A stretch of 63,497 nucleotides of DNA, the filler included, from Kipferlia bialata (lineage: Eukaryota): assembly GCA_003568945.1 (NCBI GenBank). It is 6 parts of 6 records of this genome, joined end to end, with 100 filler letters (N's around TTAATTAATTAA, not from the genome) between each part and the next. Parts side by side here need not be neighbours in the genome. Positions count along the whole stretch, not along the records: positions 1 to 15,035 come from BDIP01000749.1; 5 more parts are not named here. One strand, written 5' to 3'. The notes beneath the pieces are model-generated. The model did no database searches. It saw only the letters and a list, made by a program, of their open reading frames with translations, and was not told where the DNA came from. Each line of letters begins with the position of its first letter. Position 1 is the first letter of the stretch. The position numbers were made by a program, and so were the translations under genes. Below are positions 11,638-14,197 of the stretch, in pieces.

Positions 11638-12187
11638 TCAATACCGCGTGGCGTTTATTGATTTCAATCCAAAAGGATGGACAGATACTAGCTCAGCATA
11701 TGGAAAAGTGTTACCATAGTGCATATCAATGGCCTGTTCACGTAACCTCAACGCCTCGCTCTTTCGTGCCTCTACCCGCTCCTTCTCGACATATGCAACA
11801 ACCTCGGCCTTCAACAGCGCGTAGTCACGCTCGATTCGACGCTGCAGAACACAGATACTATAGTGAGAAGTATCTATCTATCAATATCTATCGATAGATA
11901 GATATATATATAGATATAGATATAGATAGATATAGATATATATAGTGAGAAAGTTGTGGCAGGGAAGAGAGAGAAATCTATCCACTACTCCTGGAACACT
12001 GGTCAATATCGAACTAGGGAAGAGAGAGAGTCCATATATATATATATATATATATGGACATGCTAGGTCTAGGTCTATAGGAGAGACACGCAATTAATCA
12101 TACCACTGACAACCCACCTATCCATCTTGTCATACTTGACACACAATATATATATATATATCACACAAACTAATATATATTAAGTAG

Positions 12188-12219
<32 letters not shown>

Positions 12220-13116
12220 CTATAGTGATACCACCCACCTATCCATCTTGTCATACTTGACACATAAACCCACAATACATATATTTATATCATACTAACT
12301 TAAATATAATAAGCAGGTAATATATATAATATTGTCATACTAACTTAATACCACCCACCTATCCATCCTGACACTACAATGACTGGTATATATATATAGA
12401 TATACTATTATATATATATACTACACCCACCTATCCATCTTGTCATACAACAGTGAGTAGTGTATATACATTAATATACAACAGTGAGTAGTATATATAT
12501 ATACTACACCCACCTATCCATCTTGTCATACTTGCGCTCAAGGAGCCTCATGGACTTATGCTCGGGATCATGGAGATTGGAATAGTATATGAACTGGGGT
12601 CAGCGTGTGATGGGCCTAAGAAAACAATATATTATATATAATATAGAGAGATAACAAGAGAGATAACAATACATATAGGAGTAGTGACTGTCAGTGAGTG
12701 TTGCGTCTAAGAAAACAATGGGGTAGCATATGACGACCACACACTCATATTGCGTATATACACTGCCGTACAGAGTATACAATGAAAGTAGGTAACCAAT
12801 CACTTACGTTTGATAGGCTTCTCTGTTCCCGTCGGCACCTCTTGCACAGTGCCCTCAACTCATCCACGTTACTAGAGGGAGGGGGCAGGGGTGGGGCAGA
12901 GACTGTCGGCAGGGGGGGGTCATCACTGAGGGCACTCTCAACCTGTGGTACTATGGGGTCACTCTCCCTCGCAACCTCTCTCTCTCTCTCATTCTCTTTG
13001 GCTTCGCTTGGAACCACAATCTCTCTCTCTCTCTCTTTGGCCTCTCTACTCACACTCCCTCCACCTGCACCTGGCAGCCAAGACAGGAACAGCCTAAAAC
13101 TATCGAGGAATACCAT
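11638..13116 (-). CDS. Hypothetical protein, tandem paralog A (4 exons)
   Basis: MVFLDSFRLFLSWLPGAGGGSVSREAKE...NVDELRALCKRCRREQRSLSN, later ICVLQRRIERDYALLKAEVVAYVEKERVEARKSEALRLREQAIDMHYG. Aligns along its length with the copy at 13442-14197. Confidence 0.65.
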
Positions 13117-13441
13117 CACTGAGAGATGTTTAGAAAGGTGTTGGACCTCCAACTTGGAGTGTCTTGGATGCGACACCATTACGATAGATTTGGAACAAAA
13201 ACTACTAAAGGGTTTACCAATCCTCCTGATGGCTCTGAATCCAAAGGCTAAATCGTCTCTCTCTCTCTTCCCACGCCCCCAACCCCACCACCTCCATATA
13301 TGTGTCGTGATGCAGCATCATTTCAATATATACTGGGGTGGTTGGTGGACTTAGAGTGACTCTAGAGTGTGTATTAATAGTAGTCATAGAGAGTTGAATA
13401 GACACTGACTCTATAGTCTGAACCAGATCCCACCATATATA

Positions 13442-14197
13442 TCAATACCTCATGACATTTATTGATTTCAAAGGATGGACACATACTGATGAATGGGTGT
13501 TACCATAGTGCATATCAATGGCCTGTTCTCGCAGCCTCAACGCCTCCCTCTTTCGGGCCTCTACACGCTCCTTCTCGACATATGCTATTACCTCGGTCTT
13601 GAGCAGTTCGTAGTCACGCTCGATTCGACGCTGCAGAACACAGATACTATAGTGAGTAGTATCTATATTAATATACTACAGTGCATAATAATACTGACCA
13701 CCCACCTGTCCATTCTTTCATACTTGACCTCAATGAGCCTCATGCACTCTTGGTTCGGATCATGAACATTGCAATAGTATATGAACTGGGGTCAGCAGGC
13801 ATGTGATGGTCCTAAGAAAACAACAACAATGGAGTAGCATAGGACGACCATACACTCATACTGTGTATATACCTTAAGACTGGGCCTAACAAAACAACTA
13901 GAAAGGTATACAAAGCAATGATCAGTCACATACCTTTGACAGCAAGAACTGTTGCCGTTGACACTCAACGCACAGCGTCCTCAACTCATCCACGTTGCTA
14001 GAGGGAGGGGGCAGGGGTGGGGCACAGACTGTCGGCAGAGGAGGGTCATCACTCTCAACCGGTGGTACTATGGGGTCACTCTCTATCGCTACCTCTCTCT
14101 CTCTCTCTTTCTCCTTGGCTTCCCTTGGAACCACACTCCCTCCACCTGCACCTGGCAGCCAAGAGAGGAACATCCTCAAACTATTGAGGAATACCAT
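13442..14197 (-). CDS. Hypothetical protein, tandem paralog B (4 exons)
   Basis: MVFLNSLRMFLSWLPGAGGGSVVPREAKE...DELRTLCVECQRQQFLLSK / FIYYCNVHDPNQECMRLIEVKYERMD / SICVLQRRIERDYELLKTEVIAYVEKERVEARKREALRLREQAIDMHYG. GT-AG junctions are shared with paralog A. Confidence 0.65.

What the first reader, a model, noticed from the sequence alone, without database searches (positions are those of the whole stretch)
11858..13705. Natural experiment: the same intron is 59 nt in one paralog and 656 nt in the other
Seen: the last intron of paralog B is 13647-13705 (59 nt, no echoes). The homologous intron of paralog A is 11858-12513 (656 nt) and holds four donor echoes (+ strand cccacctatccatc at about 12113, 12234, 12354, 12427) plus (TA)n. 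Inference: echoes accumulated after this recent gene duplication, so the process is fast and ongoing, or B lost them.
Basis: seen in the sequence. Interest (0 to 1): 0.78.

Follow-up and report, generated by a model that had tools for sequence, protein, structure and literature searches.

The report
Introns grown from duplicated splice junctions
In the free-living protist Kipferlia bialata, an intron that is 59 bases in one gene copy is 656 bases in the other, likely because short stretches spanning the splice junction were copied again and again; nearly half of the nearby introns carry such intact decoy splice sites, which the RNA data suggest the cell skips in favour of the outermost pair, so the genome would offer a natural test of how splice sites are chosen.

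Summary
Confirmed. Two expressed paralogs (dS about 0.27) in Kipferlia bialata carry the same intron at 59 nt (B) and 656 nt (A). A holds four copies of its own exon end plus donor. These match A's exon exactly (0 mismatches in 69 nt; A allele at 14 of 14 informative sites), and two units are whole copies of a B-like intron, so growth in A after the gene duplication is favoured over loss in B. RNA contig lengths fit splicing from the outermost sites only. The pattern is window-wide: 52 of 118 curated introns hold 102 echoes (null 0.08), about 111 nt of intron per echo. Most decoy sites are intact, yet the copied exon stubs are short (median 23 nt). Best reading: frequent ~100-bp tandem duplications, filtered by exon-centred splice-site choice, unexpected for ~100-nt introns. 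'Ongoing' is untested, and some echoes are old. Single-locus cases are known (human F7, lamin B2), and this scan noted similar echoes in sea-urchin genes; nine literature searches found no such description for Kipferlia.

The parts
12808..13116 (-). Paralog A exon 1 (ATG at 13116)
   Evidence: ORF continuity and alignment to B
12594..12807 (-). Paralog A intron 1, 214 nt; about 85 nt longer than B at one site, where it holds a decayed copy of its own 3' end
   Evidence: (F27)
12514..12593 (-). Paralog A exon 2; its 3' end is the source of the echoes
   Evidence: RNA contig length 381
11858..12513 (-). Paralog A intron 2, 656 nt, five units
12448..12513 (-). Unit 1: whole copy of a B-like intron, ending in a dead acceptor remnant (AG lost)
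   Evidence: global score 61 against the B intron; null 3.8 +/- 10.8, max 25, n=36
12429..12448 (-). Donor echo 1: 18-nt exon stub (12431-12448) plus intact GT
12357..12367 (-). Donor echo 2: 9-nt exon stub plus intact GT; unit 2 before it also aligns to the whole B intron (score 48)
12237..12259 (-). Donor echo 3: 21-nt exon stub plus intact GT
   Evidence: 12229-12262 lies on a DNA contig of single-copy depth 381
12116..12138 (-). Donor echo 4: 21-nt exon stub plus intact GT
11858..11877 (-). Real branch point plus acceptor of intron A2, 19/20 identical to B's; four internal remnants score 15-17/20
   Evidence: (best match of 15 or more in only 3 of 114 other introns)
11638..11857 (-). Paralog A exon 3 to stop
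   Evidence: covered by RNA-like contigs
13934..14197 (-). Paralog B exon 1
13786..13933 (-). Paralog B intron 1, 148 nt, no echo
13706..13785 (-). Paralog B exon 2
13647..13705 (-). Paralog B intron 2, 59 nt, no echo
13442..13646 (-). Paralog B exon 3 to stop
9647..11254 (+). Last three introns of the neighbouring gene (9647-10096, 10331-10915, 10965-11254), holding 2 acceptor echoes and 3 donor echoes that the main RNA contig skips
   Evidence: 351-nt contig fits 1 of 16 site combinations, the outermost; echo list
52953..53371 (-). Second natural experiment: intron a of paralog P3, 419 nt, 4 donor echoes (homologues: P2 50281-50339, 59 nt; P1 46949-47128, 180 nt; P4 54043-54246, 204 nt, 1 echo)

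Best explanation
Intron A2 is a five-unit array of its own exon end, donor and short intron that likely grew in paralog A after the gene duplication through repeated ~100-bp tandem duplications across the splice junction, and these likely persist because splicing here picks the outermost, exon-adjacent sites and skips decoys that carry only a short exon stub. Shown: the array, the A-type alleles in the stubs, the intact decoy GT/AG sites, the short stubs, and mRNA contig lengths that fit outermost-site use. Inferred: a high background rate of small tandem duplications (slippage or microhomology repair; metamonads lack canonical NHEJ, PMC8516963 passages). With exons and introns of 60-130 nt, 60% of random ~100-bp duplications span exactly one junction, which by geometry leaves the real donor first and the real acceptor last. 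Duplications of whole exons, inside exons or with long exon stubs would be purged. Once two copies exist, unequal crossing-over would add more, and (TA)n, (CT)n and (AG)n slippage would scramble the intron part. In A2 the first event likely copied the whole short intron, and the internal acceptors have since decayed.
For: Stubs identical to A's exon, A allele at 14/14 sites. Units 1 and 2 and the ends of unit 5 align to the whole B intron (61, 48, 67 against a null max of 25). RNA-like run X2: four contigs of 32, 140, 40 and 381 nt match the unitigs predicted for A and B mRNA; 381 fits only the outermost donor with no microexon (the four alternatives tried give 398, 464, 595, 777). A 351-nt contig fits only the outermost sites at three introns of the next gene (1 of 16), and its 30 loose letters match the real exon, not the echo. 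The deposited DPM1 protein skips both echoes seen in that part of the gene. Window: 52/118 introns with echoes; 0/31 introns under 100 nt and 37/42 of 250 nt or more; length = 136 + 111 x echoes, r 0.84. Decoys intact: GT in 39/43, score at or above the real donor in 20/43 (Wilcoxon p 0.13); AG in 55/59, AG plus branch motif in 33/59 against 39/59 for the real partners. Donor echoes precede acceptor echoes in 16/16 mixed introns. Stubs of 40 nt or more at 8/68 intron ends against 28-63% expected (p 0.0013 or less). Geometry simulation.
Against: No outgroup, so direction rests on internal evidence. Just upstream of stubs 2-4 the letters agree with B's codon (GTC) and not A's (CGC); this may be an older exon state, a join to the exon-3 start, or chance in TG-rich DNA. 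The intron side of echoes matches far less (ungapped median 5 nt) than the exon side (median 21), more than young age predicts; this is partly a detection bias. Intron-only duplications are rarer than geometry predicts (5/89 families against 13%, p 0.017), though masking hides them. Microsatellite microhomology explains only 6/102 junctions (null 0.7). RNA evidence covers 5 introns in one sample, from contig lengths, and contigs drop rare isoforms. Ten introns of 200 nt or more have no detected echo. Gene models were curated after masking echoes, which is partly circular.
Confidence: 0.7

Rival explanations
1. The array is older than the gene duplication. B collapsed it to one unit by recombination, and gene conversion keeps A's stubs identical to A's exon.
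For: Collapse of a tandem array also leaves one unit homologous to all units. Intron parts of A's units are strongly diverged. Stubs 2-4 are preceded by the B-type GTC. Some P3 echoes are old.
Against: It needs conversion at all four copies over tracts of 9-21 nt. In P3 the echoes are not homogenised and keep older states. In the P family each echo is closest to its own paralog's exon at intron a (5/5). A's intron 1 is also the longer one.
Confidence: 0.12
2. Duplications are targeted to splice junctions by a transcription- or splicing-coupled process (for example repair at junction-anchored R-loops, or RNA-templated copying). The 20-26-nt stub would be a mechanical footprint and not the result of selection.
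For: 84 of 95 local repeat families are junction-anchored and 5 are intron-only; slight excess over geometry (p 0.017); narrow stub lengths (donor median 26, acceptor 21).
Against: Geometry alone gives 6.5:1. Free ends are not enriched for splice-like motifs (GT-R 10/59 against 0.19 background; YAG 6/43 against 0.12). The copies include intron sequence, so they are not copied from spliced mRNA. Echoes also occur at a stop codon with no intron (11265/11337). Conserved housekeeping genes have fewer echoes (7/42 against 45/76).
Confidence: 0.1
3. The echoes are functional: regulated microexons or alternative sites, or way-stations for stepwise (nested or recursive) removal of long introns.
For: Most decoy sites are intact. 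In 16 mixed introns an inner echo-donor to echo-acceptor cut would be harmless. Exon-side sequence is better kept than the intron side.
Against: The main contigs include no microexon and use no inner site. Only 1 of 59 acceptor echoes has a canonical G|GT-R donor at its free end, and it would be 23 nt, out of frame. Echoes differ between close paralogs and pile up in P3, which has a frameshift. Stub mismatches span 0 to 7 like neutral decay.
Confidence: 0.07
4. Assembly artefact: repeat-rich short-read scaffolding duplicated the junctions.
For: The window is a chain of short-read scaffolds. Two repeat pairs flank N gaps (27692/27747, 41630/41685). Contigs did not span intron A2.
Against: Copies differ from each other and have unique flanks. 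0.97 of sampled words are in the DNA run. The 34-nt echo at 11265/11337 has double depth (850) and a single-copy contig bridges the two copies. Mismatches run up to 7 per stub.
Confidence: 0.02

Closest known systems
Minisatellites whose first unit spans an exon-intron border: human F7 IVS7 (37 bp), lamin B2 (100-bp unit, 10-15 copies), PDGF intron 4 (81 bp), CBS IVS13, 6-16 (PMC1557585; abstract and passages read)
   Same: Head-to-tail copies of exon end plus donor inside the intron. Intact pseudo-sites. In F7, lamin B2 and PDGF only the authentic, most upstream donor is used.
   Different: Those are a few single loci with homogeneous units, all on the donor side. Here 44% of curated introns are affected, acceptor echoes (59) outnumber donor echoes (43), units are heterogeneous and decaying, copy number is 1-5, and length polymorphism is not shown.
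Exon-centric versus intron-centric proximity rule (PMC9225289; abstract and passages read)
   Same: Outermost-site use is the exon-centric pattern reported for exon definition. Exons are GC-rich (57%) against introns (37%).
   Different: That paper ties exon definition to introns over about 250 nt in human data and expects short introns to use the inner sites. Here 61/66 echo-free introns and 45/52 innermost site pairs are under 250 nt, in a species reported to keep 87 of 174 spliceosomal proteins (PMC6679479, abstract passage).
[quoted passage not shown]
   Same: Small tandem duplication inside a gene that reshapes exon-intron structure.
   Different: No new intron arises. An existing intron grows, and free ends are not enriched for AG/GT.
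Partial exon-end duplications in sea-urchin genes noted earlier by this scan (e1-7787398, e1-7787664; unchecked AI notes)
   Same: Same echo layout, several per gene.
   Different: Other lineage. Here paralog pairs, RNA contig lengths and a stub-length test are added, and the frequency is higher (44% of introns against about one exon end in six).

Membership tests
Exon-intron border minisatellite (F7 IVS7 type) | Repeat unit spans the exon-intron junction and is reiterated in the intron | tested here: met
   4 copies in A2
Exon-intron border minisatellite (F7 IVS7 type) | Pseudo-sites intact in sequence | tested here: met
   GT kept in 4/4 in A2 and 39/43 window-wide
Exon-intron border minisatellite (F7 IVS7 type) | Authentic (most upstream) donor is the one used | tested here: met
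   381-nt contig fits only the outermost donor; rare use not visible in contigs
Exon-intron border minisatellite (F7 IVS7 type) | Homogeneous units of one period | tested here: not met
   Units of 83, 72, 120, 121 and 260 nt; TRF reports no array over A2 beyond microsatellites
Exon-intron border minisatellite (F7 IVS7 type) | Variable copy number among individuals (VNTR) | not testable with these tools
   Only one sample holds the stretch
[quoted passage not shown] | A new intron position appears between two copies of AG/GT | tested here: not met
   A and B have the same two introns, and the mRNA contig shows no added exon
Introner / transposon insertion | Shared family sequence at unrelated loci, with terminal repeats or target-site duplication | tested here: not met
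   Each echo copies its own neighbouring exon; permuted probes find 0.08 per permutation; B region matches only A in the window. No genome-wide search was possible
Recursive splicing / stwintron / microexon array | Internal sites are used in splicing intermediates or in the mature mRNA | tested here: inconclusive
   Not in the main mature contigs; intermediates and lariats cannot be seen in contigs
Exon-definition splicing | Among equal competing sites, the pair closest across the exon is chosen | tested here: met

The most novel reading that the evidence does not exclude
Kipferlia has a splicing-coupled DNA duplication process: copies are made preferentially at exon-intron junctions, with a 20-26-nt exon stub set by the footprint of the splicing machinery on nascent RNA, and this process has built about half of its intron DNA while an exon-centred spliceosome ignores the tens of thousands of perfect decoy sites that a genome of 124,912 introns would then hold.
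Probability: 0.1. Interest if true: 0.9.

Novelty: new variant of a known kind. Interest (0 to 1): 0.62.

Why it matters
First, intron growth: in this window about 49% of intron bases are the excess carried by echo-bearing introns. That points to junction-spanning tandem duplication, not transposons, as a main way this genome's introns lengthen, and paralogs let it be followed intron by intron. Second, splice-site choice: each echo is a natural experiment with identical competing sites. If 44% holds for the 124,912 introns reported for K. bialata (PMC5874029), existing genome and RNA data would give tens of thousands of tests of exon versus intron definition in a lineage with short introns and a reduced spliceosome, where the inner sites would be expected to win. 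The ceiling of about 35-45 nt on stub length would measure how much exon is needed to activate a site. Third, practical: echoes are taken as false microexons by ab initio gene finders, and they keep fossil copies of earlier exon states.

Tried and rejected
No whole genome is held, so nothing beyond the window could be counted. Outgroup or third paralog of A/B: none in the protein search (exon 3, 'longer'; weak negative), in metagenome contigs (DPM1 query) or in the ESM Atlas, so the A/B protein's function stays unknown. X3 and X4 hold next to none of the words; no inference drawn. No run is on record as RNA; X2 is treated as RNA-containing because its contigs join exons. The uncovered part of intron A2 is a skipped repeat region, not evidence. 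The 118-nt joint in X1 (11486-11605, side 21 nt, one contig) lies in simple repeats and was not used. Idea that all echoes are whole-intron duplications joined at AG/GT proto-splice sites: rejected window-wide (no enrichment), though it fits A2 and a few others (5362-5765, 6754-7117). Idea that decoys survive because their sites are dead: rejected, except for the internal acceptors in A2. Idea that microsatellite microhomology explains most junctions: only 6/102. Polarity (72/75 families with the exon-like flank on the outermost copy) follows from duplication geometry and is not counted as proof of selection; classes were assigned by eye, and 9 of 84 families were left out (8 merged, 1 next to a gap). 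A reconstruction in which A2's first event was an in-frame 30-nt microexon (21 nt of exon 2 plus 9 nt of exon 3) is compatible with the letters but unproven. Literature: 9 full-text searches found no description of such echoes in Kipferlia; the genome paper's main text has no hit for 'duplicat' or 'microsatellite'. Its supplements were not read, and subscription journals are not searched.

Full report
Organism and setting. The window is a chain of six scaffolds joined by N linkers from an intron-rich eukaryote. The last exon of a DPM1 gene is 100% identical over 50 aa to a protein named 'KIPB_006239 [Kipferlia bialata]', a free-living fornicate with 124,912 reported introns (PMC5874029; section 12 and passages read). 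Introns here end in a branch motif 7-8 nt before the end in most cases (YTNAC within 5-12 nt in 83 of 118). No whole genome is held, so all counts are for this window.

Observation. They are the second and last intron of two tandem 3-exon paralogs, A (202 aa) and B (182 aa). dS is 0.27 (95% interval 0.16-0.37; 27.6 differences in 122.7 sites) and dN 0.12; the alignable part of intron 1 differs by 17 of 124 letters. The donor motif recurs at 12113, 12234, 12354 and 12426, besides the real site at 12509; B has none. DNA contig depth is 382-442 on A-specific parts, 897 on the A/B-shared stretch and 471 on the neighbouring gene, so A and B are two loci and not two alleles. Run X1 holds 0.97 of 362 sampled words but may be the source of the assembly. 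Contigs did not span intron A2, because the tool skips most of it as repeat.

Anatomy of intron A2. It is five units of 83, 72, 120, 121 and 260 nt. Each of the first four ends in a copy of the exon-2 end (18, 9, 21, 21 nt) followed by an intact GT donor. Unit 1 aligns end to end with the whole B intron (score 61), unit 2 scores 48, and the head plus tail of unit 5 scores 67, against 3.8 +/- 10.8 (max 25) for 36 other short introns; units 3 and 4 (12, 18) do not exceed the null. B's last 20 nt match A's real 3' end at 19/20 and four internal places at 15-17/20; only 3 of 114 other introns reach 15. Three of these four internal remnants have lost the AG and the other has lost the branch motif. 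So A2 was built from copies of 'exon end plus short intron'.

Direction. The stubs have 0 mismatches to A's exon in 69 nt and carry the A allele at 14 of 14 sites that separate A from B. If each had been evolving since the A/B split, that has probability 0.005 to 1e-4; for one 21-nt stub alone it is 0.06 at dS 0.27, so the argument needs all four. Gene conversion could fake youth, and a collapsed array also leaves one unit, so loss in B is not excluded. The letters just before stubs 2-4 agree with B's codon, which may be an older state of A's exon. A's intron 1 also carries an extra ~85 nt with a decayed copy of its 3' end. A four-member paralog family at 45500-54400 repeats the experiment: intron a is 59, 180, 204 and 419 nt with 0, 0, 1 and 4 echoes, and all 5 echoes are closest to their own gene's exon. 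Two other P3 echoes keep older letters shared with P1, so some echoes are old. No outgroup was found. I put growth in A after the duplication at about 85%.

Which sites are used. Run X2 (kind guessed, same sample as X1) has contigs that join exons. Four of them, 32, 140, 40 and 381 nt, match the unitigs predicted from A and B mRNA. The 381-nt one fits only splicing from the outermost donor; the four other models tried give 398, 464, 595 and 777. Its depth (320) is about half that of the shared contig (625), so both paralogs appear expressed. A 351-nt contig of the neighbouring gene fits 1 of 16 combinations, the one that skips two acceptor echoes with intact branch motif and AG and the donor echoes; its 30 visible loose letters match the real exon, not the echo. 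The deposited DPM1 protein also skips the two echoes seen at 61665 and 61876. Limits: the inference is from contig length and position, from one sample, and contigs drop rare isoforms.

The wider pattern. An annotation-free search found 95 local repeat families (10 shuffles gave 0-2 pairs each). By eye, 46 are acceptor-anchored, 38 donor-anchored, 5 intron-only and 6 other. In 72 of 75 testable families the outermost copy has the exon-like flank. I then curated 118 introns in 14 gene models, from 179 predicted after masking echoes; uncertain ones and the P family were left out. Of these, 52 hold 102 echoes (43 donor, 59 acceptor); permuted probes give 0.08. Median length is 303 nt with and 103 nt without echoes; 0 of 31 introns under 100 nt and 37 of 42 of 250 nt or more have one; length = 136 + 111 per echo, r 0.84. 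Ten introns of 200 nt or more have none detected. The excess length of echo introns is 49% of all intron bases. Units are 70-154 nt (10th-90th percentile). Five conserved housekeeping genes have echoes in 7 of 42 introns, the rest in 45 of 76 (Fisher p 7e-6; grouping made after seeing the data, introns of one gene not independent).

Mechanism tests. Decoy sites are mostly intact: GT in 39 of 43, AG in 55 of 59, AG plus branch motif in 33 of 59 against 39 of 59 for their real partners. Survival is therefore not by site decay. Free ends are not splice-like (10 of 59 against 0.19; 6 of 43 against 0.12), and only 6 of 102 show microsatellite microhomology (null 0.7 +/- 0.8). Dropping duplications of the observed size at random on echo-free genes gives 60% one-junction, 14% whole-exon, 10% whole-intron, 9% intron-only and 6% exon-only events. 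Junction anchoring and polarity are thus largely geometry, with a small excess over intron-only events (5 of 89 against 13%, p 0.017) that masking may explain. What geometry does not explain is stub length: median 23 nt, 40 nt or more at 8 of 68 intron ends, against 28-63% expected across nine settings (p 0.0013 or less), unchanged by gapped extension. The simplest reading is a filter: copies with enough exon to be recognised are purged. Erosion of stubs by slippage from the free end and a mechanistic size bias are not excluded. The source of the duplications is not shown; metamonads lack canonical NHEJ and some keep alternative end joining (PMC8516963, passages), which is a lead only.

Comparison with what is known. 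Repeats whose first unit spans an exon-intron border are known at a few human loci (F7, lamin B2, PDGF, CBS, 6-16), and in F7 the most upstream donor wins (PMC1557585; abstract and passages). A2 works like these but fails the homogeneous-unit test and has no polymorphism data, so I do not file it as a VNTR. It is not intron gain by the Rogers model (PMC2891723, passages) and shows no sign of an element. Human data link outermost-site choice to exon definition and introns over about 250 nt, with inner sites preferred for short introns (PMC9225289; abstract and passages). Here 61 of 66 echo-free introns and 45 of 52 innermost pairs are shorter than that, and the species is reported to keep 87 of 174 spliceosomal proteins (PMC6679479, passage). 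This scan noted similar echoes in two sea-urchin windows, which gave me the F7 lead; I did not check those windows. Nine searches found no report for Kipferlia; supplements were not read.

Verdict. The single intron pair is an ordinary kind of event. What raises interest is its density, the acceptor-side decoys that are skipped in a short-intron genome, and the stub-length ceiling, all testable with existing data. New variant of a known kind; interest 0.62.

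Noticed in passing
window 38765-38766, echoes near 38666 and 38578 (minus strand): In a RING/ARM-like gene (label recalled from the translation) the donor that keeps the frame appears to be GC, while two downstream echoes of the same exon end have GT donors. If right, a weak outer site beats stronger inner ones.
   Followed up: no
window 45500-54400: Four paralogs of an unknown family (P1-P4). P3 has a frameshift in its third exon and the most echoes (7 detected in 5 introns); P2 lacks a donor in the homologue of exon 4 and runs into a stop. Echo build-up may follow loss of function.
   Followed up: partly
window 11265-11298 and 11337-11370: An echo of the last codons and stop of a gene in its 3' flank, with no intron involved; double DNA depth (850) shows both copies are real. 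A similar case lies at 39600/39715.
   Followed up: partly
window 12594-12807: Intron 1 of paralog A holds a decayed copy of its own acceptor region that B lacks, so both A introns grew.
   Followed up: yes
window 16990-18950, 54615-58646, 14336-14776, 58747-60600, 61042-62822: Conserved genes (DNA polymerase delta, Brr2-type helicase, BUD20-type zinc finger, capping protein beta: names recalled from the translations; DPM1 named) have short introns and few echoes (7 of 42) compared with the other genes (45 of 76).
   Followed up: partly
window 5362-5765 and 6754-7117: Acceptor echoes whose stub is followed by a GT donor-like copy of the intron start, that is whole-intron duplications that made out-of-frame microexon candidates (23 and 13 nt); the first lacks a branch motif, the second lost its AG.
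   Followed up: partly
window 27692/27747 and 41630/41685: Identical repeats on both sides of short N gaps; these may be scaffolding overlaps rather than echoes and were not in the intron counts.
   Followed up: no
window 15036-15135, 24280-24379, 39398-39497, 54515-54614, 58647-58746: N linkers with a stop-in-all-frames spacer: the window is several scaffolds joined, so gene order across these points means nothing.
   Followed up: yes
window 63044-63442 (minus) and 19122-23230: A saposin-type protein (Pfam PF03489, PF05184; family names recalled) and a BPI/LBP-like lipid-binding protein (recalled from the translation, not tested).
   Followed up: no
all echoes in the window: The exon side of echoes is kept far better (median 21 nt) than the intron side (median 5 nt ungapped). 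Partly a detection bias, partly fast microsatellite turnover; conversion or selection on stubs is not excluded.
   Followed up: partly
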